From the NCBI RefSeq assembly GCF_036588685.1, contig NC_086382.1, forward strand, positions 44,144,001 to 44,208,000: a stretch of DNA of 64,000 nucleotides. The letters are read 5' to 3'. A program made the position numbers and the translations under genes. Numbering within the stretch: the stretch's first letter is position 1; every line of letters begins with the position of its first letter. Source of the DNA: Mytilus trossulus (Eukaryota). The notes beneath the pieces were generated by a model, which did not search any database, was not told where the DNA came from, and saw nothing but the letters and a program-made list of their open reading frames with translations. Below, one piece after another: positions 10,801 through 54,330 of this stretch.

Positions 10801-12034
10801 GAGGCACCCGTCGTGTTGTTCATGTTATAACAAATCCGGTAAATAGTACAATTTGGTAGGTCACATTTATGAAAGGGAAGGGATTTGTAGTTAAACATAA
10901 GGAACATATCCAATATCATCTGTAAAACGGTTATATATTCCATAACGGTCAACCAACTCGTGATGGCGTTTGTAAAATTTAAGAACGGGTGATTTCAACT
11001 TCACCATGATGTAGATCTTTTGGTGTAATAGCTACCTAGTTTACCTTGTCTTCTTATTTTAAACACATTAACTTACCCTGGAAAGTCAATTGTGGTCAAA
11101 ACTGGTCATTTTGTATTTTATATGCAGCACTGAAACAGTAATTTGTATCGTATAGTCAGCTTTTTAGATATAGCCACTGGAGTAAGTACAGAACTGTTCA
11201 TAAAATACGCATGCAGTCTATTATAATCTATTCTGTATATGTTCATGACGTTTAGACTGTTCAGTTATTTATAAATACACCTGGAAATCATACTGCATTA
11301 ATAAAAAAAACTACTGCATATTTCTGCATTGACTGCAAATGGATGATTTGAACAGAACTGAATTGTCTCATGTGCGATTCAAGTTGGTTAACTAACTAGT
11401 CTAGTATGAACTCACTCAAACAAATGGGGGAAAATCTTTACCGCAGTTTAAGTAAGAAATATCAAAGGGGTTTCTTTTCTCTCTGTCAACGTTCAAATTA
11501 TCTTTATAACCGACATTCAGATCTCATATATATATATTTATAATATATCTTTTTTAAAGTAATTTCAGAAAACTCACAGACGTCATAGGCGAGCCAGGTC
11601 CGCTAGCTTACCTGAAATACCCTTTTCCTGTTCAATCCCGTGTTGTTAAATTCCATGCACTTGATGAAAAATCATTCTTCACATGCAAAGGCGGTCAAAA
11701 CTATATAACGTACAGTCAACAGAACATATATCATGGAAATATTATTATTGACACCATGGAAACACCTTCTGACATATGTAATGACGATTATCAACACATT
11801 TACATCAGTGCACAAGGATCGAATAACATACACAGATTGAAAAAGGAAGGGAAAGAAGTATATGACACGAGAGCCCATATATTTAAGGGAAAAGATTGGA
11901 AAGTATTAGACATGCCATTGGACTCCAAACACGGTATCAAAGAACCAGTTGCCATGTGCTTCAACCAAAACTATAGTAAATTTTACGTTGTCAATGAATG
12001 GGGGAAATCAGTATTAGTCTTTGATGTTATTTGA
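4826..12034 (+). CDS. Two-coding-exon gene (4826-5286, 11569-12034; 308 aa) encoding a stand-alone NHL-like beta-propeller resembling the C-terminal domain of bivalve TRIM-like proteins
   Basis: Acceptor ttatttag|agATG at 4823/4824; donor AT|gtaagt at 5286/5287 (phase 2); acceptor aatttcag|A at 11568/11569 restores the frame into ORF 11756-12034. Total 927 nt, no internal stop. Blade-like motifs: ITGIAATRNGNILLCDYDNKNLILVD, PYDLTIT, PSDICNDDYQHIYISAQGSNNIHRL, PVAMCFNQNYSKFYVVN. Confidence 0.8.
6686..6893. mobile_element. ~208-bp MITE (TA TSD); degenerate second copy ~18795-19003
   Basis: ta|CTGTGGATTCATT...AATGAATCCACAG|ta with internal ttcgtgg repeats. Confidence 0.8.
7805..8685. repeat. 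~120-bp minisatellite, about 7-8 diverged copies, in the intron of the propeller gene
   Basis: Recurring acaggaggggt.gggtgacc...ccctatatttcatttgatt...ccatacatgaatatatatggttt.gggtgggatctcgactgtttccaagtt at ~120-bp spacing. Confidence 0.8.
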
Positions 12035-16225: not shown

Positions 16226-16674
16226 CTATGCTATTTTTTCCCTCCACATTAAAAATAGTCGTTCCATTTTGTTCTTAAAACTGGGAAAGTTAACACTTCT
16301 GGTGTCCTCGATGTAATTTACCGACTGAATGGTGCACATATCAACTGACATTTCCTCACCGTCAATAATAAAGGGAATTATTCGGTCCCTTTTCTTTGGG
16401 TCATCTAAAGATTGTATTATATTAGCCTGTTTTCCAAACAGCATCAAATTATCCATAGACATATGTCGAGAATGATAGACAATAACAAGTCTACAATTTA
16501 AGAGGAGACTTGCTAATCCATCGAGGACGGGTGTGCCTGGTGTAATTATATCATCCGGTAAACCAATTGCAAGGTTTGGTACATTGACTTGTTCCAGCAA
16601 ATTTTTGTGGCAAAGTCTTGCAGCCATTTCATCTTCTGAAGCATGTAGGAGTACTGCATCAAACCACTGTTCTC
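16226..16674 (-). CDS. Gene A terminal exon: TIR domain (TICAM/TRIF-TRAM-like)
   Basis: Box1-like FDAVLLHASEDE, BB-loop ITPG, betaC CRLVIVYHS, betaD RIIPF, terminal F..KM.RL; acceptor tgtcttttaaag|GA. Confidence 0.88.
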
Positions 16675-19600
16675 CTTTAAAAGACAAATAATCAACTTAA
16701 CTTTCAATTGAACAAATGCATCTGCGTACAAGCTTTGATACACTCAACATGTGATTCTACATGCATTGTCTTCACTTTGCTCTGTTGTGTTGCATTTTTT
16801 TTGTGTACAATATTATTCTGTTGATCTTTTTTTTAATAGATATAAGAAGATGTGGTGTGAGTGCACATCAAAGTCACAATGTGTACTATAAAATATCAAC
16901 TGAAATTACTTAACACAATTAATTAGTTTCTAGTATCCCTCATGTCTCTAACAGTTTCGCCTATATATCAAGTTCACTGTACTTACTTTGATACAATTGT
17001 GTTGCATTGTGTATCTGTATATAATATAGACATCATATTAAAACAGAAAATTAATAAACACAAGGAAAGCTAGTACGAACCTTTGGTATTATTTTTTTAA
17101 GTAAACTACTGCTTGGGTTTTCAAAGCTTTAAATATCATTTTTACAAAATATTGTTATTTTGATAAGTTTTGTATTTGTTTTTTTTCAAATCTCATTTCA
17201 CAAAAATAAATTACCTCGGCGGCATAACGTGTTAACAGTAATGGTCAAGGAAAGAGAACTTTAATACTTGTCCTAAGTCAGGAATCTGATGTACAGTAGT
17301 TGTCGTTTGTTTATGTAATATATACGTGTTTCTCGTTTCTCGTTTTGTTTATATAGATTAGACCGTTAGTTTTCCCGTTTGAATGGTTTTACAATAGTAA
17401 TTTTGGGGCCCTTTATAGCTTGTTGTTCGGTGTGAGCCAAGGCTCCGTATTGAAGGCCGTACTTTAACCTATAATAGTTTACTTTTTAAATTGTTATTTG
17501 GATGGAGAGTTGTCTCAGTGGCACTCACACCACATCTTCCTATATCTATTTAATAACATTAATCACTTTGTGTACATACCGACAGAACCCCGGTCTTCTT
17601 CCAAATCATTACCGTCTGAAAACAGTGCGAACATCTTTTAAACAAGAATGTTTTGTTTGGTGCTAAGTTTGTTTACATGTGTAATAAAATCTAAATAACA
17701 TACATTTTAGTACTGACATTGGGTTGTCACCATTGTACAAAAGCTTTGCATCCGTATGGTATTATTTTTAATGAGTTTCATTATTGCAAAAATCGAATCA
17801 TCATATAAATATTAATCCAAAAAGCAACAGCTTTTAAAAGCATATTCCTACATTTGATTATGAAACTTTTGAAATGTTTAAGATGATATCTTTTTTTATA
17901 TATTTTCTATTAATAATAAGAGTCTGGAAGTGGAACCTTTTTTGCTATATTCTATACATTTGTTTGTATGACTCTTTCTTTATCCACATTAAAAAATAAT
18001 GCTTATTCTCTTAAATGTTCATGAAAATTATTTTACCACTAGATTCATTTGTTATTACATGATTTCGTCTTTTGGAACATGGTGCCTTACTGTGATTCAT
18101 ATTTTAATGTCTAATTCTTTAGATTATCATAGCTATTTTATTCCTTTCCACTATTCTATATTCTATTCTTTTTACTCACTTTTCATTTCTTTCATTCTTT
18201 TTTTATCAATCATTCCAAATTTTGTAAATCCCGGGATGTCGGTTTATTTTTATTAAACGGGGATATATTTTCCAGACTTAAAATATTTTGTTTTACTTTT
18301 CACTCATATTTCTACATATATCTTTAAACTGGGGTCAAAATGCCGTATAAATAAAACAATCGTAACTTACTCAAACGTGCGTCTTCTACTGAATTATCTT
18401 GCATCAGTTGAGTACTGGTACGACTAGGTAAGTCTGATTGTGACAATGAAGCAGAGGTAGTTGTCAAGCCTAAATAAAATATGTTTTACTTGAAAACAAA
18501 TCTAATATTTACTACAGAACAATAACGTAAATGTACATTTATGACGTATAAACGCATGACATGATAGTCTTCAAATCGAATTAAATTTTTCGTTTCTATA
18601 GAAAATAATCTCTTTATCTTAATGAATTACTTAAGGGTATAATACTTTGCCGATATAATAAGAGAATAAGTTACAAAGGCCTTTGTGCAGTTGGGTTTTA
18701 TTTGTTCCATGTTACCAAAACAATACGTTGCCGATCTAATTAGATAATCAGTCACATATTACAAACGCCTTTCTTCGATTGGTTTGATTAGTTCAGTGTG
18801 GAGTCATTTATTTTCTTGGGTACCAATTTTCGTGAATAAAGGAAAACTTAATTGTTCGTGGATATTTAATTTCGTGGTTTTGCTGATGTCTGCATACAAG
18901 CGCATAGAGAATTTATTATTCGTTGAACATTTAATTTCGTGGTTCATCTGCAGCCACGAAATCCACGAAAATTGGTATCCAACGAATAATAATGAATTCG
19001 TAGTAAATATCTCTGTACCGAAGATTTCGCTAAAATAGGGTATCGGCGAGAAGATAAATTTGGCGCATAAATGTTCATTAGTTCTTCCTATTGTTCGCAG
19101 AAATGTCCTGTGAACCCTTATCACTATCGTTTAAATGTTACACAATCCTTTACATGTACACTTACAAGAGTCTGGAGGTGGAACCTTTATTTCTGTATCC
19201 TCTTCCTTTTTGTGTATGATTCTTTCTTTATCTATAAAAATAATGATTATTCTCTTAAATTATCATAAAAACATTTTTACCATTAGATTCATTTGTTATT
19301 ACATGATTTCTTCTTTCTGAACATGGTGCCTTTCTGTGAGTACTTTATTGTCTTGATTTAGTTTTTCTTAGCTATTAATAGACCACTTTCGAGTTCATCC
19401 GTCACCGGAAAAAACTCGTCAATTATACGCGCCTTTATCATCGTCATTTGTGCGTTTAGGGGCGTCGTCACTTCCTTCCAATGTTGAGCGAGTGGTTGGA
19501 AAACTATAATTCTATATTGTACGAATTATTCGGCAAATTGAATTCTCAAAATTGACAATCAACACTGCTGTCATTAGGGAAATGTCAGTAAGTACCTACA

Positions 19601-21232
19601 GAGCAACCATTATTTCTAGTTTATCCTGCACAAAGACGATCACTAAGACGCTTGATGAACGTAAATAGTGCAGGGATACAGGCGAGCCCCTCTATCTGGT
19701 AAATGACCTCATAAAGGCGTGTATAATTGACGAGTTTTTGCCGGTGACGGATGAACTCGAAAGGGGTCTATTCCTTTGCAACTCCGGAGTATCGTTTTTT
19801 TGTTTTTTTTTCATTTTACTGGAATATATTTTCCGGACGTGATATTTTTATTTTCTTTTCACTCATATTTCTACATATATCTTTAAATTGTGGTTAAAAT
19901 GCCGTATAGATATCGTAGCTTTCTCAAACGTGTTTATTCTTCTGAATTCCCGGGTATGAGTATGAGTTGAACACTGGTACGATTTGGTGAGTCGGATTGT
20001 AACAATGAAGCAGGGGTAGTTGTCAAGCCTAAATAAAATATGCTTTACTTGAAAAAATACTTTACATACTACAGTACAATTAGTTTCATGTCCATGCAGT
20101 ACGTATACACGCATGTCATGGTAGTCTTCAAATTGAATGAAATTTTACGTTTCTATAAAAAAAAAATATTACAAAATTGCGAATGTTCATGTGTTCAAAT
20201 CAACAGTATTAATGGGTCAAACTGGGTTGGATTGTTTTATATAAAAAAATATGTGGTATATTTGCCAATGAGACAACTGTAAACTAGAGACCATTAACAA
20301 CTATAGGTCACCGTACGGCCTTCAACAATGAGCAAAGCCCATATCACATAGTCAGCTATTAAAGGATCCAATAAGACAATGTAAAACAATTCAAACGAGA
20401 AAACTAACGGCCTTATTTATATAAAATGAAAAGAAAGAAAAACAAATATGTAACACATAAACAAACGACAACCTCTGAATTACAAGCTCCTGACTTGGGA
20501 TAGGCACATACATAAATATTGTGGCGGAGTTAAACATTGTATTGATATGTTAAAGTTTAACACGACTTTCGACATTATTGTGCAGTATCGTGGCTGTCTT
20601 TTTTCTATTGGTAGATAATTGGCATAATTGCTCGGAGAGACCAAAAGTTACTGATTTTTGGTAGGAAACCTGACAAGCATAGTCCTTAATTTAAGATTGG
20701 AGTTAAGCGCACCTGCCATGTACGTGCATGATTCGAACACACAACTACTGTGTTGACAGGCTAGTGAAACGGCAGATTGTTACTTGGACCACTTCTAAAC
20801 CGAGTCCACTAAACCAGGAAGGAGGTACTATTCAAACCAATCACTCATTAACGGTACCAATGTGTCTTCAACAGATCTGTATTTAGACAATATCTTTTCA
20901 GAGATGCTAAAATCCGAAATATTCAAAGAACTTTGATGAATAGAAAAGTAGAGCCAAAGGCAAAATGGATATTTCAGTATTGTTTAGATGTGCAAAAGAG
21001 TCCCGATCTCCCTCCTTCAACCTCACCGCCCCCCCCCCCCCCCCCCCCCAAACTCCCAACCCATTCTTCCTCACCCTAAAAAAAAGGAAATATATCGAAG
21101 GCATTCCTTATATATGTACAGCTTGTAATTATATATAAAAAAAATACCTGTTTGTCGTTTAGTCCAGTAATACCCAAACATCCAACAAACTGCAGCTGTT
21201 CCGAAAACAAGGCATACATCTTTTCCACTCAT
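16226..21232 (-). CDS. Gene A: signal-anchor + S/T-rich linker + TICAM-like TIR protein, 222 aa; exons 21232-21148, 18469-18371, 17615-17580, 16674-16226
   Basis: All introns GT-AG and phase 1; 85+99+36+449=669 nt open. Protein begins MSGKDVCLVFGTAAVCWMFGYYWTKRQT-GLTTTSASLSQSDLPSRTSTQLMQDNSVEDARL-NGNDLEEDRGSV-GEQWFDAVLLHASEDEMAA... Architecture mirrors gene B. Confidence 0.8.
17580..17615 (-). CDS. Gene A 36-nt microexon (NGNDLEEDRGSV)
   Basis: ttttcag|...|gtatgt, phase 1-1; peptide motif matches the two gene B microexons. Confidence 0.75.
18371..18469 (-). CDS. Gene A 99-nt Ser/Thr-rich linker exon
   Basis: ttttatttag|...|gtaagt, phase 1-1, open frame; a dead paralogous copy lies at 19924-20028. 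Confidence 0.75.
19381..19768. mobile_element. MITE with ~70-bp TIRs, probable TA TSD
   Basis: GACCACTTTCGAGTTCATCCGTCACCGG... / ...CCGGTGACGGATGAACTCGAAAGGGGTC; absent from the paralogous empty site at ~18131-18150. Confidence 0.82.
19924..20028 (-). pseudogene. Pseudo-exon: duplicate of the gene A 99-nt exon
   Basis: Clearly similar to 18371-18469 including flanks, but has an in-frame TAA (..NSEE*), a 6-nt duplication and a donor changed from GTAAGT to GAAAGC. Confidence 0.75.
21148..21232 (-). CDS. Gene A first coding exon: short hydrophobic signal-anchor followed by basic residues
   Basis: gtttgcag|gctgaacATG...ACAG|gtattt; 85 coding nt, MSGKDVCLVFGTAAVCWMFGYYWTKRQT; same length and phase as the gene B first coding exon. 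Confidence 0.75.
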
Positions 21233-24200: not shown

Positions 24201-27200
24201 AAACGTTTTAAAGCCAGACAAGTACAAAGTTGAAGAGCATTGAGGACCAAAAATTCCAAAAAGTTGTGCCAAATACGGCTGAGATACATCTATTCATGTA
24301 ATAAGAACATCCTTAGTTTTTCGAAAAGTTAATGTTTTGTCAACAGAAAATTTATTAAAAGATGACCATATAACAGATTTTCATGTCCACACCAAATTTC
24401 TGACTGCTGGACTGGCATATATTTTAATGATGATAATTATAAAAAAAAAACTAGAGTCAAAAGATACCAAAAGAGATCAAACTTAAAAGTTTTGTCATTG
24501 GCACTCATACCACTTCTTCTTTATGATAAGTCGAAAACAAACTCACAATGCAATGGCAAATCATAAAACAACAGTGTATAAAAATACATCAAGAAAAATA
24601 AAGACTAAGGAACACGAGACCCGCCAACCATCGGGTTGGTCTAAGGGGCTCCAGAGGGGTAGGTATATTCTGCTCTACACATGGTACCTTTCTTGTTCAT
24701 TAATTACAAACTCGTTGATACGTCTAAATATCCCTTCGATGAAACGAAAACCAGACTGTGCTTACGACAATTGCAACCTATCCGTTGTAATCTGTGTGAG
24801 GTATATTATAAAAGTTTTGTTAATAAAAATGCCCTGTTCAATAGTAACACGTTTCTCACATTTTAGAGTGTAAGATTTCGTAGGAAAAAATCTATAAGAC
24901 ATCCTGACGGAATAGAAAACGCAAAAGACGAAAGTGTGAAATGTCCAATACTTCAAGGTAAAAATCATTAAAAAACCTCAAGACAAAAGAGATGCGGGTA
25001 AATAGAAAGGATGAAATCGAAAGGTTTGAAGCTCATAAGACATTATCAATACATAAAAAGTATAGTTACCAAAGGACTTCAAGTCTTTTCTTCTGTTAAC
25101 TTATGAAAGAGCATTACTAAGAAGATGTTATTTTAAATCAGTTATCGGTAGTGCTCATACCACTGTCCGTCGTTATACTACTTCGTCAAGTAATAGTATT
25201 TGGTTTCTAGTTGGATTATCGATCTTTGCAAGTGATTGATTTACCCATAATCCTCCTTTTGACGTCGACATTTAGGAAAAGCAGACGCATTTTTATCCAT
25301 AGAATTATCTTCTAAAAAATCGACACCAATCTGACACATAAGTTGTTAAAAACCTTATTTTTTTTAAAACTGTTTCAAATGATATTTATCAAGGATTTAA
25401 TTGTCGATTATTTTGACTCGATGGATACAATTGTCGAAGGGTCATGGCAAAATTATGATTCTTAGCAGACGGCATGGTCAGGTTTTGTCGTCATTCCGAG
25501 AAGAAAATAGTTACTTCTACATCGAATTATTTCTAAATTTTATTTCCGATATGCAATTTTGACAATTTTAATTTAGTTTAAATTTACAGCAAACTTTATT
25601 TTTGTTGATTAGAGACGCACGTTAAAATGTTAAGATGACTGGATTATTGAATACAAAATTTAAAAAAAATGTTTGTTTTACGATGGATGGGCCATTGGCA
25701 AATCTTGTATTCATTTTTTTTTTCTCGTGCGTTGAGACACGATCGGCCACAGCAGAATCAGCAGATGTGTTGGTTTATTTATTTATTTATTTATTTTTGT
25801 TGTTTTTGTTTGTTTTGCATTGTTTTTAATTCTTATATGTTCATATACATATTTACACAATTTATCATAGCATGTCTTTTTCAGTTTAAAATGCTTAGGG
25901 TATCTGGTAGGAAGGGCGACAATGTGGTCTACATCGGCTAAGAAATTTTTTTTGCGTTCAAACATTGATGGAGATTCGGGTGTTAACAGATCTATAGAGG
26001 GTCCAGTAGTAACAACTTTACACAGTTCAAAGGTTATGTCTATGACTATGGCTCCGGTATTCACGACCGCTACTTCTAGTGCTGCTGATGATTATCAGGT
26101 AATTTTCCAGTTTTTCCAAACCCATCTCCGTGTAGTAAGGACAATGACGAGCTTGCAAGAAATGTCGATAATTTAAAACATTTCAGGAGAATATGTTGAT
26201 CTGGCCTTACTATTAGTTTATTCACAGGCCTCTTCTGGGCATAATTAGAAAGTCGTTGTTTCACAGGATCTTTTGATACCCCGGAAAGGGGGCGGGGGTG
26301 TTCTTCCTATATTTTTATATATACGAATGTGACGCAAAAACATGGTCCCTTATTTTCATGTCTTGCTGATTAGAACAGGGTTGCTTTTTTATGCCCTGCT
26401 GTCGGGAACAGGTTGATTTTTAAACAATCGATTTAAAAAGGACAGATTGGATACTGGATATTATCACAAGTATGTTTTTGCTTACATTAATAAACTGTTT
26501 TGTGACAGGTTTTATATTTCTGAACTAGTCTAGAAAATATAGGTCTCTGTCCAGAACAAGGTATACATTTTCCGAGCGTGTCTAGAACAGGGTATACATT
26601 TTCGAATTCTAAGCATTTCTAGAACAGGTATTTTTTTCAATATTTCTGTTTAGAACAGGGTATGTTTTGCAATGTTTTCTGGTTAGAACAGGGTATGATT
26701 TGCAAAGTGCTGTCGGCAAAGAAATTTACACAATAGGTACATTGTGTAACTGGACAGATGCGTTTTTTAGTCTATATTAGTATATTTTGTACTACTGCTC
26801 ACTCGACTGTTTTTCAAGATCGACTCAAGTACATGCATAGTATACGGCTAGGCGCACTAGTCGTACGATAAACAATTTCGTCTCAGAATGTCGCAGGATC
26901 CAGCTGGTTCTTGGGCTGTCATTGACCCTGACTTATGGCTGCTCAATATGTATCCTACGTCTAGTATTGGTAAATGCAATAAGCATGGGGCGCTTAAAAT
27001 GTTACGCATTCAATTACCAAGGTTCATGCGTGAATCAATCATGTGCATATACTCATTCTTGTTTAAGATGCTTTGATCAGCACCCACTTATGATTCAGTG
27101 CCCCAGACAAGACTGTTTTCCTCAAGGCAGGCAAAATGTAAGATTTGAGCAAACAAGCCTCAGTTTAGACTGAGATTTAAGGCACATGTGAGCAACTCGT

Positions 27201-27918: not shown

Positions 27919-30900
27919 TAGGCGAGTGATATGAGAGCCAAATTTACATTTTTAATGCACCTATCTAACACACGGCTAAATTATATATCATTGGAAAGCT
28001 AAGAATGTGTACTTTCTAAATATCCCGTTCGTCAAAAGAAATTATGGTGCATTTTTTTTAAATCGAGGTCAAAGGTCATGGGTGCAATTTCAATTCTCGG
28101 ATACTTCCAGTGGAAAAATCGAGTCAAAACAAATGCAAAAACAAAACAATTTTATGGAAATGCTGTATTACTGTTGGGAAAATATATTTCTATCATAATA
28201 TTAATTAATTTTGGTTGATTTTAACGGTAACGCATTTTACGTAACGTTTTCTCTCGGAGTCTTTGAAAATCAATCATTAAGTACCACGAATGTATCTATA
28301 GTCACCCTTGCATCATCTAAATCTTATAATTCCTCCATATCATTTGATTACACGTATTTACAAACATATATCTTTAAATTTGATATAAATATTCCGAAAT
28401 AAAATATTTGAAGCAAGGGGAAAATATAACATATGACGTATTTTTAATTGGTTAGAAAAGTCCCATGATGAGCTGTACAATAAAATTGAGGAAGCGAATG
28501 GTCTCCTGTTAGTTTGAAAGACTGCCAACTGCTTCAAGATGAGACAACAATAGGGCAGATTTCTTTTTATTATTGTAGTGCAATATGTTGAGTCTGGATC
28601 ATACCGCAATTCCATTTACATCACTAACTCAAATATGATAAGAGTACTAACTAACATTACTAAAATGAGTAAAGTGCTACTAGTATATTTATATCAACAA
28701 ATTGACAATTTTAACATAAAACATCACAAGGAAAATATGATTAATCATTGTACGTCAAACTGTGTTTGATTTTACTTTAGTCGGCCGCCGTGTATCTTGA
28801 GATATCTAGTTAATCAAACAACACTTGACAAAAGTAGTTTGTACTTTTTTAAAATTACGCTAGTGATGACGTTCGGCTACTTTGGCACTAAGTATTACTT
28901 TTTTGTATCTTGTTTCACCGCTTCAAAAGGGAGAACAAGGTTATCCTAATACTGAACCTTTTATTTGGCTTTCTTGTGTTAAAATTCCGTTAGCGTGTAA
29001 CCTAAATGATCGAAACGTCGGACCAATGAGATGTTCGACCATTTAGGTGTATGGAATATTGCGATATCGGAATATTATAGCTTTATTTTATCTTGTAATC
29101 TGATCATTCTTATCGGTCAACATGTCCATACAAAGACAACTTCCTTGGCATGGCAATGATATTGTTTGCCTTTATTAGTGGAGAATAAAGGCTTTTCCCC
29201 CTGAATAAGAAACCCAATTTGGAAAAAAAAAGGCTTAAAATTATTCCCAAAAAGACAACTTTTTTCCAAAACAGAGCAGTCTCAGTAGTTATTGTGCATG
29301 AATTCAAACTAAAAAACACTCACTTATACATTTTTCATGCCTAAAATGACTGTATGTGCAGATATGAGGATCTAGCTATGTATCATTACTGACAAAAAGG
29401 AGTTTCATTCCAAAGTAGGACGTGACTCTTGAAAGGGGGTCTGTAAATCGAAGTTTCAGTCAAATTCATGGTTTATTTGATGAAAATTGCGCATATTTTT
29501 CCTAAAAAAAGGGTAGAGGTAGTTTTGAAAAAAGTCAACAATATCACTGTATGGGTATATATCAGTACAGCAGAGGGTTTGCTTAAAGCGGACATAAGAT
29601 CTACTATATACAGATTGAAATAAAAATTGGGAAATGAACATGAAGGATTTGTCAAAGAGACACCAACCCGTTCAAAAAGCAGGCAACGACCGAAGACCAC
29701 CAAATGGGTCATCAATGCAGCAAGAAACTTCAAAACCTGGAGGAGTTCTTCAGCTGGCCCCTAAACAAAAATGTACTAGTTTGAAATGATAATGAACGTC
29801 ATACTAAGCTTCGAAATATACTCAAGAAGTTAAAATAAAAAATCTTCCAAAACTAAGAAAGGCCAGAGGCTTCTGACTTGGGACAGGCGCAAAATTGTGT
29901 CGGGGTTAAACATGTTTTGGGAAATCTCAAACCTCCCCCTATACCTATACCAATGCGTGAACAGATCAAATCTTGCAGAAAATTGGATGACATCATACCG
30001 GACCGATGTTGCCTTTTAGCCAACCAAAGTCATACGGAGAACTTATTGTTTCTGTTGTTAGGTCGACATTGTCTTGGATAAAACTTGTACCCCAGAAGAA
30101 AAACAATGCCATGTAGAATGTATGCCCCATTTTCAATTTTTCTAATCTCCTGATCAGTCAAACTTGTTTAATAATTATCAAAGGTGTGTCCATAAATACG
30201 GTGCATTTGTAATGATAAACATAAATGAACTAGAGTAAAAAAAAATTAAAGATTATATACATTCTACTAAAGCCATACATCTAAGAACTTTGTCAATAGG
30301 AATAATGTACGCTTTATTGACTGCCGCAGATGTGCCATCATCCAAAGACAATACAGAAATATTTTTAAAGCAGGTGTCATAATTTCAATTGAATAATCCA
30401 GTGAAATGTTTTTAGATAATGGATATTCATCTGATTGATTACAACTTTACCCTCTATCTGCTTCTGTAAAATACTAGTAGCTGCATAAAGTGCTTACAAC
30501 AAGTTTCGCAGTCATTGCTCAGATCTTTAAAATTGACAGAATATATATCACAGTCATTTTAAACGGGTAGTTTTCCGTCATTACGGCATAAGACAACATT
30601 ATAGAGATACTGTATACAATACTGGATTTACCTTGGTCTTGTTGAGGCTGTTTACATATAACTATAAATTAACATTTTATAGGTTTTGTTGAAGCTGATA
30701 ATATGTTGTGTAGTTTTCTCGGCGGCGATCCTCGAGCAGAAATTAAGCCCGGTTAACTGATCAAGTAATCAGTAAAGTTGTAAACCAGAATACTTCCTTG
30801 TATACATGCACGTCGTCTTTAATCGTCGAAATGTAAGTAAAAGCTGTTTTATGCTCAGAATTAAATAGCTCTTTACTTTCTGATTTCAAATTGTGTAGCA

Positions 30901-37508: not shown

Positions 37509-37960
37509 TTATCGCAATGTCTTTCTCCAAGAGTCTACTAATTTTTCAAACTTCTCTTTGAAAGTTGGAAACTGACGATGATTTGTGTCATTAACATATT
37601 TTAAATGTATAATTGGGGATAATTCCACTGATATTTTTTCTTCATTCACTTGCAATGGGATTATTCTTTTTGCTTTCTGAGGATCTTCCAGTGACTGAAT
37701 GACATTTATATCTTTCCCATAACCTGCAACTGTATCTGAATCAAGGCTTTTAGTTTGATAGATAAAAACTAGTCTGCATGAGTCTAAGATAGAACTTAGT
37801 CCAGGCAGGAGTTGACTTCCAGGTTCAAACAAATCTTCCGGTAGTGCAACTTGTAGATTTGATATATTTGTAAAATTATTCATTAAGAATGTTTTACACT
37901 TAGTTGCTTCATTCTGGTCTTTTTTCCCGTGTAATAATAAAATGTCATAGCGAAAGATAT
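37509..37960 (-). CDS. Gene B terminal exon: TIR domain (TICAM-like)
   Basis: Acceptor tttatcgttgcag|AT; YDILLLHGKKDQNEA, BB-loop LFEPG, SCRLVFIYQT, KRIIPL. Confidence 0.88.
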
Positions 37961-40900: not shown

Positions 40901-43900
40901 GAGTATCAAAAATTCCAAAAAAGTTGTGCCAAATCATATGAAAATCAAAATACCATTCTGAAAAGTAGTATACTTAGTCTTACAAAAAGCTACCAGAAGT
41001 TGAAAACGCTATTCTAACTAATAGACCATCCTTTATATATCTCTGACTACAATATAAATCAGTACACTTCTAAACAATTTAGGGTGCAGAGGTCATAGGT
41101 AGAACTTGACCTTGTGTACTGAAACATATAAAACTACCAAACAAGAAAACCCCAGACTAAATATGCGACTCGTTATCTTTGCATTGTTGTCGTCATGAAA
41201 ATCGTGATTGAAACTACAGACATGGGTAAAGGGAGCGAGGTGTAACATAATCAATTGAGTATAATTGAATGAGCCACTTTTATACCTAGCGCTCTGTCTT
41301 CCTCCACATCAAGTGGACCTGTTTAATAGAAAAAACACATATTGTGATTATTAATAAAATTGAGAATGGAAATGGGGAATGTGTCAAAGAGACAACAACC
41401 CGACCAAAATAAAAAAACACAACAGCAGAAGGTCACCAACAGGTCTTCAATGTAGCGAGAAATTCCCGCACCCGGAGGCGTCCTTCAGCTGGCCCCTAAA
41501 CAAATATATACTAGTTCAGTGATAATGAACGCCATACTAATTTCCAAATTGTACACAAGAAACTAAAATTTAAATATCACTTGTTTAAATGATAATTATG
41601 TCGAACTAATGTTTTAGGATGTTATTCAAAAGCAAAGATAAAGTTTTTTGTCCTAGTCAGACATGACAAAACATGCATGACAGAAGATATTTATTTAGTC
41701 AGCTCTGAATTTGACCTAGTTCTATTCAGACTGTGTTCCCTTAATTATCGTCTGTTTGTACATGCTTTATGATGAACTATTCAAAATACTAGTAGCATTG
41801 ATTATACAAAAATGAACAATAATATATCGATAAGGTCGAACAGAAGTTGTTTAGTATCAAAATATCAATAAAGGAAAATCTCTTTGATCAATCTGCACGG
41901 TCATATGCATGTATGGTAATACATTCGATGCCATTAAAACTTAAAAACTAGATATGACATGTCACTGATAACAAAGTAAATTCGGTTAAGAGAAGATCAT
42001 CAGCTGAATTGATGTAAAACATAAAACACACATAAAACAGTTAACAGAATGAACTTACATGAAGTCAATTAAAATATTTCCCGCCCAAATCCATTAGAAA
42101 ATGGAGATGCAAGATACCAAAAGGATGTTGAAACTATTATACGTTTCAGACAAACGGACATCGATAAGGGAGATAAAAACTAAAAATTACGAAAGTCTAC
42201 AAAAACACAACACAGACAAGCGTTAAATACATGTTCGTTAGTTGATTTGTACAACACCGCTTTGATTTGATCAATGTGGACCATTTGCTTTCATTAACCG
42301 TTGAATGTTCCTGATTATCTATGATCATTTTCATTATGATTAGTATTATAAGCAAGAATATATCGCTTCAAATAAAAAAAAAATGAAATGTCCTTGGAAT
42401 TACATTACGAAAGTAGAAAATTTAATGTGACCCATTTATACCTATAGGTCTGTCTTCTTCTATATCATCTTGACCTGTACAACAGAAAAAACAATAAATG
42501 TTACGTTTTCAAATAATTTAAGATTGGGTTAACAGTTTTGGGTCATTATTCCAAAACTATGTTCCAAATAAGGTATTGTATTGTCAGTCGATTTTTCAAT
42601 AGTTATTTTTGTAGCTATTTGGTGTGATCTAAGGCTCCGTGTTGAAGACCGTACTTTTTCCTATATTGGTTTACTTTTACAATTTAAGAGCTGGATGGAG
42701 ATGTATCTTATTGACACCCATTCTACGTCTTTATATTTCTATTTGCAAAATACGTAATAAATGCAAATTCGATACAATTAAACTGAATATGCAGTCTATA
42801 TACACTTTGTAGAAATTGCACATGAAATACGAATTGAAATCACTCTTGATACGAATATAAAGCATATACGCAGATAAAAAAGATGAACCTTTTATCGAAA
42901 AAATATAGAAAGATATACTTACTGCTTTGAGCTAAAGGTGTGTTCGATTCCACAGAAAAAATATTTGCATCGATATTTTAATATATATGTCTGTACATAT
43001 CATGTATATTAGTAAATTAACACATATATCAAGCTTCGTCATGTGCATTAGTACTCCCCACATGTGCTTTATCCTGTTATAATCCATAGTATTACAGAAT
43101 AATTTCACGTTTTGTTCAATCAATAATTTGCAATTCAAATTATAACTATCATTTTTCTCAAACAAATATCTAGTTTTGAAGTTCAAATCATCACTTTTTG
43201 GTCAGTGACAGTATATGCCATAGTAATTGTGTATTATTCAGTGATTGAAACAAAATTTTACTTAGACTATACTAAAAGATATTGACAGAACAATTGTGAA
43301 AAATTATCAACAAAAACAAAAAGAAACAGATGAACTTGTACCTACTCGATGATATACTACATTAGGTACTTTTTTGATAGTTGTCTCGTAGACCTTTTAG
43401 TCGGTTCTTCTAATAATGTAAATAAATTAAATGGGATTTCATTTTCACTTTCAATTAATGTACACACTTTGTTGCGGTATTTTTCTACGTTGATTGGATA
43501 TACTTAATATTAAATGTCTTCCTTTAAATGCCACTTTATATGACAGAAATATTATGAAATATTATAATTTTTCAAAAAAGGAACATAACAGTATTTGTTC
43601 CTTATAGCATAAAGGGTTTCGAAAATTTGTTCAATTAGAAACAGGTAGTATAGTTTTGTTTATTCAAGAGGAACTTCAGTTAGAGGGATCAATTAAACAC
43701 TGCATCTGTCTAAACCGTAGTAAATCAAATATAAAATCAAACCTCCTTAAATTTTAAGAATTATATCTCATATAATGTTAGCAAGGCTCTTTTAATTCTG
43801 TTTTTTAAATTTGTATTCTCTCAATTTTTGTGTTCAATAATTTAAAGATACATGATAATAAATGTTGTTTTTTTTCACGGTATCTTATTCGAACGGTGCT

Positions 43901-46900
43901 CTAATAAGATACCGTGAAATTTTCATCGGTCAGCGCCTACCGACAATATTCAAAGTTATGCGGCTTAATAGTACGAACCTCCTTATACAATAAGCTTCAA
44001 TGACTAAAGTGTGTTCTCGGCAATATTGATACATATGTAGAGACGAGAAAACAAACAAATTGTATTACAACAGTGACGATCTATAATTTATAGATGTATG
44101 TCTGTTTTTGAAATAATTATCTTCATTAAAGACAAATGTTATTGTTATTATACATGCTACATCACTAATTTATACATTGATGCAATTCGTGTTTACTGTA
44201 GGCATGTCAATCTAATATATTTAACTGTTTAACTGATGCGTTATTACGCTAAGAAGAATAGGTTTTACCTTCAACTGGAATTTCTTCATGAGTACTTGAT
44301 TCTATCTTTCTGCCTATCCGTGGAGTTTCTTCTGTAAGACTGTCAATCTAAAACAAATTAAAAACAATTACAGGAAAATACAATACGAAATTAATCTGTC
44401 TTACGTTATCACAAACATTGAAAACAGCATGTATAAATGAAATGCGCTCGAAGGGCTTTTCTGGATGTATTTTCATTCGGAACGCTCCCAGCCGTATATT
44501 TGAACGCCAAGGATGTATAAAACAGAAACTGTTGAAGAGCTTTACAATGAAAAAATGACATAAGATAATAGCCAACTCATTCTAAAGATAATTTTGTCCG
44601 GGGAAGTACAAACCTTTATTTAAAAGATTCATTCATATCAAAAAGGGGTTCTTTTTTTCAATGTCTAGTTAATTATAAACACAGTCTTTTTTTCAAAGTG
44701 CTTTAATCTTTCATATAATTTTCAAAATGTAGATTCAACTCGTATGTAAACACGGACAATAAAGGGTCTGATATGCATTCAGTAAAAAACATATCTATTG
44801 TCTGAGACTGTATGTTCCATTCAGATATCTTTTGGGTTTTTTTTTGTTTTGTTTTGTTTAATTTATACATTGGCGGCACTCTTTAATCGTATCTACTTCA
44901 TCATTATAATTACATCCATTTATTTTTTTGCGTAGAGACCATTCTATACACGTACGACATATGGTATTTCGTTTCGTCAGATATATGTTCCTGTTTATTG
45001 GAACAGTCGATTCAAACTAGCAAATATCAATCATGTGCCATTTAAATGTTGTTTTTCATGAAATTTCAAGGTGATAAGATCTAAATCCTTTTTATTTTTT
45101 TTTGTTGTTCAGACTTTTTCTTAAAGTACGATATTATACGTTCAAAAATGTTACTGGGAAAACTCAATAATAAAACAATGTTTATCAGTCCTTTAAACTA
45201 TGTGCTGTACCTTCAATGATATTTTATAAACTTCGTCTTTCATAAATTGTTCTAAGCTGTCGCATTTCTCTTTTAGTAATTTTAGCTGGGATTCAAGACT
45301 GGCGTTGTAGTGGATGTTCAATTTTCTTGATCTTTCATGTATATTTGCACCTTCTTTCTTCAAGGATGTCATGATTTCTTCGAATTTTCTTTCTAACGCT
45401 TTTTTGTCATCTGTCTCAGCTTTGCCTAGTTCATTTTGATGTGTTTGTATTACTTCTAATTTATCTGTAACGGTCTTCTCGTATTTGGTATGTTCTTCTA
45501 GTTTATCCGCTATGAGGCTAGTTTGTTTTGCGTCTTGATATTGCTTTTCTTCCATTCGTTTTATATGCGCATCCAGTGCTTGTAATTGTTTCAATTGGGC
45601 TATGATATAAAACAAGAAAAGATCATACCTACGCTAACGTCAAAAGGTAAGCTAGCTATAACACAAGGTTTAATTAACCATTTTCTGCATATAAAAACGC
45701 CTGAACCAAGTCAGAAAAATGACATTTATTGTCCCTTCGTTTGATATAAATAAACTCATCATAGGTTCCAAAGACTCAATTTTATATATACACCAGAAGC
45801 TCGCTTCGTCTACAAAAGACTCATCAGTGACGCTCGAATCCAAAAATGATTAAAATACAAACCCAATTTAAGTACGAAGTTGAAGAGCATTTAGATGTGT
45901 TTGAGCGTTTGATTTATATTAGGGTCTTACCGTTTTCCTCCGAGTTCAGTTTTTTGTGATTTTACTTTTGTCTTAAAAGAGAACTATTTCGATGTACTAA
46001 GTACTTATTTTTTTTAAATAAATTTATTTTGTTTAATTGGTTGATTTATCTTGTCCTTCATTCATATAAAAAAAATTAAGGTGATTTGGTAAGATTATTA
46101 ATAAGATAACTATAAAAAAAATCTGATATAAATCATAAGATCCTGTGACGGCTCTTGAATTTTACGATTTAGGATTCTAACAAAACCCTTATCTTTTTTT
46201 CTGTTCTGTCAACACCAACTAATAATCTTCCAACTTCTATATTTGGAAAGTTATGTACTGCTAAGACAATACCAAAGGATCCTGAGAGGTCTTTATAACA
46301 AGGAAAGTACGGAGCGTTGTAAGATCTATACTAGTAATACGTGGACATATGATCTGTATTTCAATCAGATGAGTCAGTCGATATGGAGCATTATTGATCA
46401 ATCAACCGAAACTATTCAACAATGCAATAAACGTATTACTATGGAACACCACAGCTGTCTTATGTGGAACTCTGATATTACTTTATGTTGTTTTATTATT
46501 ACTTAATGATATTTGTCTTTCCTTAATATGGTTTTGACATTACGTAATGGTGTTTAAATATAACTCAATATATAATAGCCATTGTTTGATGCTATTTCGA
46601 TATTACACGATCATATTGTTTTGTATTGACTTCATATAGTTTTGTCATTACTCGTTGTGGTTTCACCATTATTTAAAATGGTTGTGTCATTAGTCAATGT
46701 GGTTTCAACATTACTTGATGTGTATGTGACTTAACGTAATGTAGTTGTTTCATTACATGATTTTTTCCGAATTGGTCACGTTGTTTTACCTCATCAAGTA
46801 ATGGGATAACCACATCAAAGAATGACAGGACCACATCTAAGAATGACAAGACCACATCAAATAATGACACAAACATATCAAGAAGTGTAAAAGCGTCAAA

Positions 46901-49900: not shown

Positions 49901-52200
49901 GGAGCACTTTGTCTTTATGGATTAAAAGATATTCCAAGTCAATATGTCCACTGCGACAAAAAATACAAGTCTAGAAAATACATCGCAATCACTCTTAAGG
50001 TTCTCTAGCTTTGTTTTTTGACAAAATTTTACAATTTTGTTTTACAGACATAATAGAAATTTGTTCTTTTTTATCTGGTTATAAGAAACAGGTTCTCTTT
50101 TGTTTTTCATTTGCTTCTAACGATCTTCGTATTGTTTGCCTTTGATCTTTTGAAAGAAATCCTTTTGTGTTTATTAAGTCGTTCATCTGTTATAGAATGC
50201 CTCAAACCACTAGATCTTGCAAGTTCATCTGATAGTCTACTGACTTCTTGTCCAGCTACCATCAATACGTCTAAATGGGGTTTTCTTTTAAACATATGAC
50301 AACAACATCGCCCTTCACAATTGCATTATTCTGGGATTTATTTTTGCTTTATATGGACTGCATGTGCAAAATCTGACTCATAAAATGAGCATACTACCAC
50401 ATTTCCAAGAAGTTCTTATTCTATAATTGAACGCCAGGAATTAAACTGTGGTCGAGATGACTATATTTTCTTACACCAGTCTACCAAATCATTGAACGTC
50501 ACAGAGTCCTGGCGTGATCATAATTTCTGTATTTAGCTTTCTTTAGCCAATATTTATCATTCAATCTAACACACAGAGTTATCTGATGCGCGTGTCTAGT
50601 CCTAGATACATTTGAACATATACATACAAAGAATATGCCGTTCTCGGTGTTGCAATATGGGTTTTTGTGAGAATATATGTCCATCTATTATCACGTAATA
50701 AATCACCCAGAATTTTATAACAAGTCATTTCAATGTGCAATCCACCTCACATGACGATTAACTTATCTTCTCTGGACAAATCAGGCCATTCCCACTGAAT
50801 AACCATGATTACTAAAAGTGGCTGATCTGCCGTTACTATTGATGTTTCTCTCGTATAAACCACATTTTCCGCCTTATCCATCGAATACTTGATCTTTGCA
50901 ACTGAATAGGCTTGTTGCTAAAAAGTGGCATCATAGATTTTACACTTACTTGAACAGCTCTACAAGAGCCTTCGTTTGAGTAATGATATGAACTGCGATT
51001 TATACCAGTTTGCCCTGGTAGTACATACAAATCGCTCATTATGTCTATAAATAGGTTGCACATGCGCAAAATTGTCAAATCATATTTATCATAACCTTGG
51101 AAAATGTTATCAAACCAAATCATGATATAATTGAAAAGCCCAAAACATTTATTTTATAGTAAATAGTTACAATGTTTTTTAATGAATTTTGTTACATTTC
51201 GCGCATGAGCAAACCCTTCAGATGTCAAACATTCATGTCTCGTGAATTCTTACATGTAAGGAAGGCAGCTACCAAACCTGATAGCTGTTTTTCACTTAAA
51301 GAAGGTAAACGAAAAATTTCAAGAAAAAAATCAGTATTTTCTAGCTGAAAAAAACTACCATTTTAGAAAAAGGCCGTGGCCATCTTGAAAAAAATAATTT
51401 TTTTAATGACCAGCAGTTGTTCCTTAAAAAGTATATAATAATGATGCTTTGTGGAAATATCTATGATTGTATCATCATTTGCACAATTCCCTTGATTTTG
51501 CCTGCTAATATCTTCCACTAACTTTGCAACTAATGATTTCAATGAATACCTGTTATACAAACAATCTAACTCCTCGTATGTGTTGCTCAATGAAATATCC
51601 AATAAGATTTGCCGAAATCCCTATCTTACCAAGATACATCGGCTAACATGAACGAGAATTTATTACAAATACAGATATCCATACCTCTTTGCTGTAGTGC
51701 CTGGACAAACAGCTTCATATGGGGGTCTCATTGGAGGGTTCTGATCCCGGATCCCGCTTACTGTTTTGTCAGATTCCCGTATCCTGCTTACACTATGTAA
51801 GTAAGCAATTATCTTTTTTTTTGTAATTTCCTGGGTCCCGCCAGACTTCATTTCCCGTTTTCAAGCACAATAATTTGTATTTCACGTGTCCCGCTTACAA
51901 AAAATCGGCAATCCCGCGTGACGCTAAGACCCCAATGAGACCCACTCATATTTGAGGTTTTGAAATAAGTAAGAGATGAATGCAGTGTGCATACCACAAA
52001 CGTCTCATTGGCTGATGGATACTTCAGAAAAAATCAGTAAGGGTTACTTACGATAATAATGCAACGGCTTTGGTGATATGCTTAATTCTTGGAACAAATG
52101 TTATAATATCCTTACCCGACTGTACTCTGAACAGTTTATACGAAATTCCACATCCAAGTAATACGCCGCCTAACACACAAACAGAATCCCTTATATTCAT
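37509..52200 (-). CDS. Gene B: signal-anchor + coiled coil + acidic linker + TICAM-like TIR protein, 356 aa; exons 52200-52116, 45599-45211, 44347-44269, 42474-42442, 41318-41286, 37960-37509
   Basis: All GT-AG; intron phases 1,0,1,1,1 are consistent; 85+389+79+33+33+452=1071 nt open. TIR exon is an obvious paralogue of gene A (LLLHGKKDQ, FEPG, CRLVFIY, IQSLEDP.K..RIIP, FPTFKEK). Confidence 0.78.
38122..39150. mobile_element. Tc1/pogo-like non-autonomous element
   Basis: ta|CAGTAAAACCTGTGTAAACCGG ... CCGGTTTACTCAGATTTGACTG|ta. Confidence 0.7.
40097..40825 (-). mobile_element. Tandem hammerhead retrozyme, family 2 (351-nt unit, 2 copies), inserted in a family-1 copy (~40030-40935)
   Basis: aagattaacggtacc recurs at 40101, 40452 and 40803; minus-strand gcatca-CTGAAGA-gac..gtc-GAAA-tgcgca-TC at ~40125-40170 and ~40476-40521. 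Confidence 0.82.
41286..41318 (-). CDS. Gene B 33-nt microexon (GPLDVEEDRAL)
   Basis: attaaacag|...|gtataa, phase 1-1; homologous with flanks to 42442-42474. Confidence 0.72.
   Translation of the reverse strand, partial: VHLMWRKTER
42442..42474 (-). CDS. Gene B 33-nt microexon (GQDDIEEDRPI)
   Basis: ttgtacag|...|gtataa, phase 1-1. Confidence 0.72.
44269..44347 (-). CDS. Gene B 79-nt linker exon (IDSLTEETPRIGRKIESSTHEEIPVE)
   Basis: ttgttttag|...GAAG|gtaaaa; phase 0 to 1, exactly bridging the coiled-coil exon and the microexons. Confidence 0.75.
45211..45599 (-). CDS. Gene B coiled-coil exon (~130 aa)
   Basis: Inside ORF 45193-45615; E/K/Q/L-rich, no Pro, heptad-like; acceptor ttttatatcatag|CC, donor AAG|gtacag. 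Confidence 0.8.
46440..47294. mobile_element. Foldback element: ~310-bp inverted arms built from ~21-bp subrepeats
   Basis: tatggaacaccacagctgtcttatgtggaactc... / ...gagttccacataagacagctgtggcgttccata; internal accacatc.a.gaatgaca repeats. Confidence 0.8.
48147..51520 (-). mobile_element. Academ (XPG-type) DNA transposon remnant in an intron of gene B
   Basis: TIRs TAGTGGGAGATATT.../...AATATCTTCCACTA with long degenerate extension, 3-bp TSD ACT. Minus-strand remnants: HGEADIRMFVH (~49545-49580), TDTDV, FVHLFSRCET...FRGK (XPG/PIN-like), and a Cys-rich C-terminus (LLKCG...CVTVGNCTC...LPCT, ~48790-48870). Confidence 0.8.
51721..51947. mobile_element. Short MITE
   Basis: TIR gggtctcattgg / ccaatgagaccc. 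Confidence 0.6.
52116..52200 (-). CDS. Gene B first coding exon: signal-anchor-like segment
   Basis: tttttgcaacag|tgcccaaccATG...TCGG|gtaagg; MNIRDSVCVLGGVLLGCGISYKLFRVQS; 85 coding nt, phase 1, same as gene A. Confidence 0.7.
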
Positions 52201-53654: not shown

Positions 53655-54330
53655 TTTCGACAGATATATCGTTTAACTCTACTTTCCGCTATATAGATGA
53701 TGTTCTTTCACTAAAACTAGAGGGTCGGTTGAAAACAAAACTTTACGACAAAAGAGATGATTTCAGCTTTTCAATTGCGAACTTTCCATTTCTAAGTAGC
53801 AACATTCCAGCAGCACCTGCATACGGGGTATATATCTCCCAATTGATACAATAATCCCGTGCTTGCATTTCCTATCATGATTTTCTTGATAGAGGGTTAC
53901 TGCTCACAAGGAAGCTATTAAATCAAGAGTTCCAAATGGTGAAGTTGAAATCATCCCTCCGTACATTTTACGGACGCCATCACGAGTTGGTTGACCGTTA
54001 TGGAATGACCGTTTCACAAATGATATCGGATATGTTCCTTACGTCGTAACTACAATACCCTTCCCTTTCATGAATGTGACCTACCGAATTAGACTATTTA
54101 CCGGATTTTTAATCACATAAGCAACACGACGGGTGCCACATGTGGAGCAGGATCTGCTTACCCTTCCGGAGCACCTGAGATCACCCCTAGTTTTTGGTGG
54201 GGTTCGTGTTGTTTATTCTTTAGTTTTCTATGTTGTGTCATGTGTATTTTTTATTTTAGCCACGGCGTTGTCAGTTTGTTTTAGATTTATGAGTTTGACT
54301 GTCCCTTTGGTATCTTTCGTCCCTCTTTTA
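53655..54330 (+). mobile_element. Penelope-like element 3' fragment (RT C-terminal part); related copies ~39153-39625 (+), ~10690-11010 (-), ~24520-24800 (-)
   Basis: FNSTFRYIDDVLSL...TKLYDKRDDFSF.I.NFPFLSSNIPAAPAYGVYISQLI in ORF 53585-53854; the downstream nucleotide sequence is shared among copies. Confidence 0.78.

What the first reader, a model, noticed from the sequence alone, without database searches (positions are those of the whole stretch)
21148..21232. N-terminal segments resemble mitochondrial outer-membrane signal anchors
Seen: A = MSGKD-VCLVFGTAAVCWMFGYYW-TKR; B (52116-52200) = MNIRDS-VCVLGGVLLGCGISY-KLFR. Both are ~16-18 residues, moderately hydrophobic, Gly/Ala/Cys-rich, and end in aromatic then basic residues. 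Length and exon phase are conserved although the sequences have diverged. Established: Tom20/Tom70-type signal anchors have this short moderate TM plus C-flanking positive charge. Inference: the TIR is displayed in the cytosol on mitochondria, giving a MAVS-like location with a TIR output. The Cys residues could alternatively be palmitoylated.
Basis: inference. Interest (0 to 1): 0.72.

Follow-up and report, generated by a model that had tools for sequence, protein, structure and literature searches.

The report
Membrane-anchored TRIF/TRAM-type mussel immune adaptors
Two neighbouring mussel genes encode immune-signalling TIR proteins whose closest known relatives are TRIF and TRAM, a type that reviews describe as chordate-only, and each begins with a short hydrophobic segment, conserved across bivalves, that likely anchors it in a membrane (most likely, but untested, the mitochondrial surface), where it would act as a docking platform for other TIR proteins.

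Summary
Both 85-nt, phase-1 first coding exons (minus strand) are real. Gene B spliced here equals RefSeq M. trossulus XP_063404461 exactly, and gene A's N-terminus recurs in other Mytilus proteins. The finding does not describe the linkers; B has a 130-aa predicted coiled coil. The anchor is no Mytilus quirk: 17 independent clusters carry it before a related TIR, with named members from Solemya to Mya. 15 of 17 meet the Tom20 rule (moderate hydrophobicity, basic flank), and they are as weakly hydrophobic as this genome's Tom20. But 2 of 5 ER P450 anchors also pass and no known outer-membrane anchor matched by sequence, so mitochondria is about 55%. The cysteines are mostly Mytilus-specific. 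The TIR is TRIF/TRAM-type, with no catalytic glutamate, CARD, pLxIS or RHIM, so it works like a TRAM-type sorting adaptor, not like MAVS. Its sister clade is a molluscan TIR-RHIM (TRIF-like) family, also present in this genome. Molluscs may thus have split a TICAM ancestor into anchor and effector independently of vertebrates. The linkers are enriched in caspase-8-type LExD sites.

The parts
21148..21232 (-). Gene A first coding exon: N-terminal signal-anchor-like segment (85 nt, phase-1 donor); its 5' acceptor is at 21246
19927..20028 (-). Gene A linker module copy, disabled in this assembly (6-nt insertion, in-frame TAA, donor GA); contigs of 3 of 4 runs lack the 6 nt
19166..19231 (-). Gene A linker exon (66 nt)
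18371..18469 (-). Gene A Ser/Thr-rich linker exon (99 nt)
17580..17615 (-). Gene A microexon (36 nt) encoding the acidic DLEED motif
16226..16674 (-). Gene A last exon: TRIF/TRAM-type TIR domain
52116..52200 (-). Gene B first coding exon: N-terminal signal-anchor-like segment (85 nt, phase-1 donor); in-frame stops lie just upstream of the ATG
45211..45599 (-). Gene B exon encoding a 130-aa predicted coiled coil
44269..44347 (-). Gene B linker exon (79 nt)
43343..43408 (-). Gene B optional linker exon with an in-frame TAA here; skipped in P0014, used in other Mytilus homologues
42442..42474 (-). Gene B microexon 1 (33 nt), DIEED motif
41286..41318 (-). Gene B microexon 2 (33 nt), DVEED motif
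37509..37960 (-). Gene B last exon: TRIF/TRAM-type TIR domain, 39% identical to that of A

Best explanation
Genes A and B are tandem paralogues of a bivalve-wide family of TRIF/TRAM-type TIR proteins whose conserved N-terminal segment is likely an uncleaved signal anchor that would hold a predicted non-enzymatic TIR in the cytosol, most likely on the mitochondrial outer membrane, where it likely serves as a TRAM-like sorting adaptor. Shown: gene structure, conservation of the segment, the TIR clade, absence of effector motifs. Inferred: membrane insertion with the N-terminus away from the cytosol, from the C-flank positive charge; mitochondrial sorting, from the Tom20 rule; nucleation of TIR assemblies that recruit an effector, the best candidate being the sister TIR-RHIM (TRIF-like) protein; caspase cleavage at linker LExD sites releasing the TIR as an off-switch, as reported for vertebrate TRIF. 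B's coiled coil would pre-oligomerise the TIR or hold it away from the membrane.
For: The B model equals RefSeq P0014. The segment occurs in 17 independent clusters, with named members from Solemya, Tegillarca, Mytilus, Pecten, Saccostrea and Mya. These form one TIR clade, 95/89, under the mixture model. Best 18-residue KD: A 1.48, B 1.81, family median 1.81 (n=22), own Tom20 1.78, own ER P450s 2.15-3.04 (n=5). 15 of 17 are under the 2.21 ER limit of PMC2192658 and have a net positive 5-residue flank; 15 of 17 end in an aromatic residue. The anchor profile scores own Tom20 (5.1 bits) above all 5 P450s (3.3 to -1.3), weakly. The TIR profile hits TRAM at E 3e-9, TRIF at 1e-3 and MyD88 at 0.02; the Atlas top hit is TICAM2 (0.88, a lead only). 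The BB loop reads DDIITPG (A) and EDLFEPG (B), like the TRIF-group motif EDFxxPG. [LIV]ExD occurs in 9 of 17 linkers against 2.4 in shuffles (0 of 2000 reach 9). A sister TIR-RHIM clade exists: RHIM core in 13 of 30 against 2.5 shuffled, with a member in this genome.
Against: No localisation predictor or experiment was available. The Tom20 rule passes 2 of 5 ER P450s, and the basic flank passes 5 of 5. A and B lie below the 1.97-2.16 range that PMC2192658 tested as mitochondrial, so the rule is extrapolated; B's uncharged run is only 16 aa. The anchor profile found no Tom20/Tom70 in PDB or Pfam and the Atlas gave no usable feature hit. The control is small, two of the five P450s are close paralogues, and family members were picked by eye from a hydrophobicity listing. 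The simpler tree model splits the anchored group (monophyly not rejected, p-AU 0.41). Fold search does not separate TRAM, TRIF, MyD88 and MAL. The LExD pattern was defined after seeing the sequences, and in A and B the residue after Asp is Arg, which caspases disfavour (recalled). B has lost the acidic AEDD-type site (HGKKDQ).
Confidence: 0.5

Rival explanations
1. The segment is a type III (N-out) signal anchor inserted at the ER, and the adaptor works on ER, Golgi, endosome or plasma membrane next to Toll-like receptors, replacing TRAM's myristoyl group.
For: TRAM, the closest solved relative, works at the plasma membrane through myristoylation. This genome has at least 150 scored matches to the canonical TIR model, many in long TLR-sized frames. 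PMC2192658 notes that many ER anchors also have basic flanks and that the Tom20 anchor is ER-competent by itself. 2 of 5 P450s pass the rule, and 2 of 17 family members exceed 2.21.
Against: Family anchors are consistently less hydrophobic and poorer in Leu/Ile/Phe than the ER controls (medians 1.81 vs 2.33, and 0.33 vs 0.50), and this has held since the Solemya split.
Confidence: 0.25
2. Same anchor, opposite job: a membrane-tethered TIR decoy that sequesters the TIR-RHIM adaptor, MyD88 or TLR tails and dampens signalling (compatible with any location).
For: A and B have no output motif: no RHIM, pLxIS 0 of 17, TRAF6-type motif 1 of 17 vs 1.6 expected. Amphioxus TIR proteins bbtTIRA and bbtTIRC inhibit bbtTICAM and MyD88 (PMC6043800). 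B lacks the acidic site.
Against: TRAM also lacks RHIM and still activates. The BB-loop Pro-Gly is kept in both. One member has a weak death-effector-domain match (P0064, E 0.004, below cut-off), which would suit an active platform.
Confidence: 0.25
3. The weakly hydrophobic segment targets peroxisomes or lipid droplets, or both these and mitochondria.
For: Short Gly-rich hydrophobic N-termini also serve these organelles (recalled). The summed insertion energy is unfavourable (A +2.2, B +3.7 on a recalled scale), which allows a non-spanning hairpin.
Against: There is no basic cluster before the segment (net N-side charge 0 in A and B). The Pex3 control could not be retrieved, so this is untested.
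Confidence: 0.12
4. Not a membrane span: a cleavable signal peptide, or a palmitoylated peripheral tether using the two Cys.
For: Two Cys in both A and B; short core in B.
Against: Cys is present in only 3 of 15 other clusters and also in Tom20. The core ends in aromatic then basic residues in 15 of 17. A secreted TIR has no known use (own knowledge). The hydrophobic moment is low (A 0.14, B 0.42), so it is not an amphipathic presequence.
Confidence: 0.07

Closest known systems
TRAM/TICAM2 (vertebrate sorting adaptor)
   Same: Best PDB match of the TIR profile (E 3e-9). N-terminal membrane tether, short acidic linker, C-terminal TIR, no RHIM. A keeps an acidic site after strand A (HASEDE vs AEDD).
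   Different: Hydrophobic anchor instead of Gly2 myristoylation (no Gly2 in A or B). A/B as sister of TRAM alone is rejected (p-AU 0.017, simple model). B has a coiled coil and lacks the acidic site.
TRIF/TICAM1 and amphioxus bbtTICAM
   Same: Same TIR clade; TRIF-like BB-loop motif; TRIF is caspase-cleaved N-terminal to its TIR (D281/D289, PMC3169542).
   Different: A and B end at the TIR: no RHIM and no pLxIS. The TRIF-like architecture belongs to the molluscan sister clade.
Tom20-type mitochondrial signal anchors
   Same: Position, length, moderate hydrophobicity, small residues, aromatic end and basic flank match this genome's own Tom20.
   Different: No significant sequence match; hydrophobicity of A is lower than any construct range in PMC2192658; targeting untested.
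MAVS
   Same: Would share an outer-membrane, cytosol-facing scaffold role if the targeting holds.
   Different: MAVS uses a CARD (passage), a C-terminal anchor (recalled) and pLxIS; none is present here.
SARM1
   Same: A TIR protein with an N-terminal 27-residue mitochondrial targeting sequence (PMC12165793), so a mitochondrial TIR is not without precedent.
   Different: SARM1 is an ARM-SAM-TIR NADase. A and B lack those domains and the catalytic Glu.
Bivalve ecTIR-DC families (Gerdol et al. 2017)
   Same: Cytosolic invertebrate TIR families catalogued in bivalves; this family may be one of them.
   Different: The paper is not held and was seen only as cited by others; those passages name no anchored or TICAM-type family.

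Membership tests
Tom20-type outer-membrane signal anchor | Single hydrophobic segment of about 18-20 aa at the N-terminus | tested here: met
   Core starts at residue 6-7; uncharged run 19 aa (A) and 16 aa (B, short)
Tom20-type outer-membrane signal anchor | Mean hydropathy under the 2.21 ER limit | tested here: met
   A 1.48, B 1.81, own Tom20 1.78; 15 of 17 clusters under the limit; both A and B are below the tested range 1.97-2.16
Tom20-type outer-membrane signal anchor | Net positive charge in the five residues after the segment | tested here: met
   +2 in A and B, 16 of 17 clusters; not discriminating, since 5 of 5 ER P450s have it
Tom20-type outer-membrane signal anchor | Sequence likeness to known outer-membrane anchors | tested here: inconclusive
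   Own Tom20 ranks first of 6 but at 5.1 bits; no such hit in PDB, Pfam or Atlas
Tom20-type outer-membrane signal anchor | Uncleaved, and targets to mitochondria in cells | not testable with these tools
   No SignalP/DeepLoc or experiment available
TICAM-type TIR clade (TRIF/TRAM/bbtTICAM) | TIR groups with TICAM1/2 apart from canonical TIRs | tested here: met
   100/99 against 16 canonical mussel TIRs, 98/95; the outgroup had no identified MyD88, TIRAP, SARM or amphioxus sequence
TRAM (TICAM2) proper | Gly2 N-myristoylation motif | tested here: not met
   No Gly2 in A or B
TRAM (TICAM2) proper | Orthology to TRAM to the exclusion of TRIF | tested here: not met
   p-AU 0.017; vertebrate TICAM1+2 form one clade, 99/96
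TRIF (TICAM1) proper | C-terminal RHIM and pLxIS motif | tested here: not met
   The TIR is C-terminal in A and B; pLxIS 0 of 17 vs 4 of 11 vertebrate TICAMs
MAVS | N-terminal CARD with C-terminal tail anchor | tested here: not met
   Anchor is N-terminal; no CARD in Pfam scan or models
Enzymatic TIR (SARM1-type NADase) | Catalytic Glu in helix C | tested here: not met
   A and B have Gly at the aligned position and Gln/Asp two residues on; activity itself not tested

The most novel reading that the evidence does not exclude
A TICAM-type adaptor predates the protostome-deuterostome split, and molluscs duplicated it independently of vertebrates into a mitochondrially anchored sorting adaptor (this family) and an IBM-TIR-RHIM effector. 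Together they would form a caspase-regulated, MyD88-independent TIR-RHIM signalling platform on the mitochondrial surface.
Probability: 0.25. Interest if true: 0.85.

Novelty: new variant of a known kind. Interest (0 to 1): 0.62.

Why it matters
Reviews state that no TRIF homologue exists outside chordates (PMC6043800) and that molluscs lack TICAMs (PMC9334734). These genes and their TIR-RHIM sister clade argue for an older TICAM lineage with a parallel anchor/effector split. If the anchor is mitochondrial, it links Toll-type TIR assembly to the organelle used for antiviral and cell-death signalling, in animals with very large TLR repertoires. A 30-residue GFP fusion and a co-immunoprecipitation test this directly. 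If the anchor is ER or endosomal, the evolutionary point stands and the mitochondrial one falls.

Tried and rejected
Structure-complex job, A TIR with the own-genome TIR-RHIM TIR: no verdict (0.26, mark 0.34). Anchor profile against PDB and Pfam, and Atlas on residues 1-45: no informative hit. Single-sequence PDB search with the A TIR: nothing. The run search listed no holder on record as RNA; four guessed-RNA runs were used. Pex3 control not found; the MitoNEET_N search returned only an exon without a hydrophobic segment, unusable as a control. No anchor exon found in 20 kb upstream of two C11 paralogues (absence not shown). TRAF6, TRAF2/3 and pLxIS motifs are not enriched. An exact VQIG codon pattern was absent near the own TIR-RHIM gene; a variant VIIG was found by translation. 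The death-effector-domain question rests on one weak Pfam match and stays open. Left out of the anchor set: P0044 (internal, more hydrophobic segments), P0053 (signal-peptide-like), P0070 and P0106 (other clade); duplicate P450 loci L014 and L016 were dropped. Three look-ups of earlier findings returned nothing. Literature searches found no description of an anchored or TICAM-type molluscan TIR family; subscription papers, including Gerdol 2017 and its supplements, were not visible.

Full report
Source and observation. The window is mussel DNA: gene B's TIR is 100% identical to RefSeq Mytilus trossulus LOC134687931. In this AT-rich DNA hydrophobic pseudo-exons are common: 17 of 71 comparable open stretches reach the same hydropathy, so homology had to decide. 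It does. Six window exons give P0014 (XP_063404461, 356 aa) letter for letter. The A segment begins 5 of the 8 homologues found. Four guessed-RNA runs cover the A exon and not the intron bin below it.

Anatomy. A (244-aa model) is anchor, a disordered linker from three small exons, then TIR; AlphaFold on the close homologue P0002 gives helix 4-28, disorder to about residue 95 and a confident TIR. B is anchor, a 130-aa exon inside two long helices with coiled-coil-like heptads, an acidic linker, then TIR. Both genes share a 33-36-nt microexon encoding D-[LIV]-E-E-D just before the TIR, duplicated in B. Other linker modules are duplicated, disabled or variable between individuals.

The family. 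A TIR-only profile found 234 clusters at E up to 0.001, of which the best 150 were listed. Among 50 listed clusters with a C-terminal TIR and at least 35 residues before it, 20 have a hydrophobic segment in the first 70 residues. I kept 17 independent ones (A, B and 15 others), picked by eye from the listing. Named members come from Solemya, Tegillarca, Mytilus, Pecten, Saccostrea and Mya. The anchor sequences vary freely while their character stays, which is what a targeting signal does (inference).

Which membrane. PMC2192658 (abstract, sections 14, 18 and 21 read) defines the Tom20 signal as an 18-20-residue segment of mean hydropathy 1.97-2.16 plus a net positive five-residue flank; 2.21 and above goes to the ER. 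Best 18-residue means are A 1.48, B 1.81, family median 1.81 (22 rows, 7 of them A/B orthologues), this genome's Tom20 1.78, and five ER P450 anchors 2.15-3.04 (scales recalled). 15 of 17 clusters pass both criteria. Against this: 2 of 5 P450s also pass, all 5 have the basic flank, A and B lie below the tested range, and the anchor profile finds no outer-membrane anchor in PDB or Pfam. It ranks own Tom20 first of six only weakly. I put a real anchor with cytosolic TIR at about 0.9 and mitochondria given an anchor at about 0.55-0.6. Cys residues occur in only 3 of 15 non-A/B clusters and also in Tom20, so palmitoylation is at most a Mytilus addition.

What the TIR is. The profile's PDB matches rank TRAM (E 3e-9), TRIF (1e-3), MyD88 (0.02). 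Fold comparison ties TRAM, TRIF and MyD88 within 1 Z for the A model and puts MAL first for the B model. In a 49-sequence tree rooted on 16 canonical mussel TIRs (LG+C20) the anchored family is one clade (95/89). It is sister (98/94) to a second molluscan clade (100/98). Both group with vertebrate TICAM1/2 (99/96) against the outgroup (100/99). A simpler model keeps the three together (98/95) but splits the anchored group; monophyly is not rejected, and A/B as sister of TRAM alone is rejected. Caveats: the ingroup was collected with a profile of these proteins, and the outgroup lacks identified MyD88, TIRAP, SARM and amphioxus sequences. A and B keep the BB-loop Pro-Gly and have no catalytic Glu.

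The sister clade. Its named members are from gastropods and bivalves. They have TIR followed by a long tail with a RHIM core in 13 of 30 (2.5 expected; vertebrate TRIF 8 of 9). Before the TIR, Asp followed by A-x-P, like a caspase-exposed IAP-binding motif (recalled), occurs in 14 of 32 long-tailed hits (1.1 expected). This genome has such a gene, with a RHIM-like exon about 2 kb downstream of its TIR. That is the TRIF/bbtTICAM layout. Passages of PMC6043800, PMC9334734, PMC9440496 and PMC7075850 describe TICAMs as chordate or vertebrate.

Mechanism. A and B carry a tether and a TIR but no output motif (pLxIS 0 of 17, against 4 of 11 vertebrate TICAMs; TRAF motifs at chance). The best reading is a sorting adaptor that would nucleate TIR assemblies on an organelle surface and pass the signal to a RHIM-bearing partner; the pairing is inferred from kinship and architecture only. 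[LIV]ExD sites are enriched between anchor and TIR (9 of 17, 2.4 expected; pattern chosen after inspection). TRIF is cut by caspases N-terminal to its TIR (PMC3169542 passage), so cleavage could detach the TIR, but Arg after the Asp in A and B argues against efficient cutting. A tethered decoy, as amphioxus bbtTIRA is for bbtTICAM, remains a serious rival.

Novelty and verdict. A mitochondrial TIR has precedent in SARM1 (PMC12165793 passages), and membrane-tethered sorting adaptors in TRAM. A signal-anchored TICAM-type adaptor in a protostome, with a TRIF-like sister, was not found in seven searches. Gerdol et al. 2017, the most likely prior description, could not be read. Verdict: observation confirmed; mitochondrial targeting plausible but unproven; MAVS analogy replaced by a TRAM-like one; new variant of a known kind; interest 0.62.

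Noticed in passing
L042:1324-2358 (+) and L048:2292-2825 (+) (G000:C4, 95.756-95.759 Mb); P0098, P0165, P0081, P0133, P0119, P0066: Molluscan TIR-RHIM proteins with a TRIF/bbtTICAM-like layout; RHIM core in 13 of 30, N-terminal Asp|A-x-P motif in 14 of 32 long-tailed hits; two further related TIRs in this genome (L043, L044). Worth a study of its own.
   Followed up: partly
P0064 (Mya arenaria) residues 75-133; also P0062, P0067, P0113, P0045: Weak death-effector-domain match (E 0.004, below cut-off) between anchor and TIR in P0064; the others have a linker insert that looks similar by eye. Would give an anchor-DED-TIR protein able to engage caspase-8.
   Followed up: partly
P0028 (M. trossulus XP_063439487), linker: An anchored member with IETD followed by AAPL, i.e. 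a caspase-8-type site exposing an IAP-binding-like motif; RefSeq names it 'hybrid signal transduction histidine kinase M-like', probably a mislabel.
   Followed up: no
window 19927-20028 and 17915-17982 (-): Gene A's two-exon linker module is tandemly duplicated, with one copy of each exon disabled here; contigs of 3 of 4 runs lack the 6-nt insertion of the first, so linker length probably varies between individuals.
   Followed up: partly
P0002/P0009, P0006/P0012/P0016, P0008/P0017: A-type and B-type homologues share the same longest-contig length within three other Mytilus assemblies, suggesting the tandem pair is conserved; M. coruscus has B-type forms with a Pro-rich linker instead of the coiled coil.
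   Followed up: no
L003, L004 (G000:C11): Two close TIR paralogues elsewhere in the genome; no anchor exon found within 20 kb upstream.
   Followed up: partly
window 4643-5290 (+) and 11558-12034 (+): Two ORFs that look like beta-propeller exons; the first has a sub-threshold NHL match (E 0.008), the second no informative match.
   Followed up: partly
window 30761-31345 (-), 26841-27173 (+), 53576-53854 (+): ORFs that look like transposable-element remnants by eye (recalled resemblance); the first has no informative Pfam match, the others were not tested.
   Followed up: no
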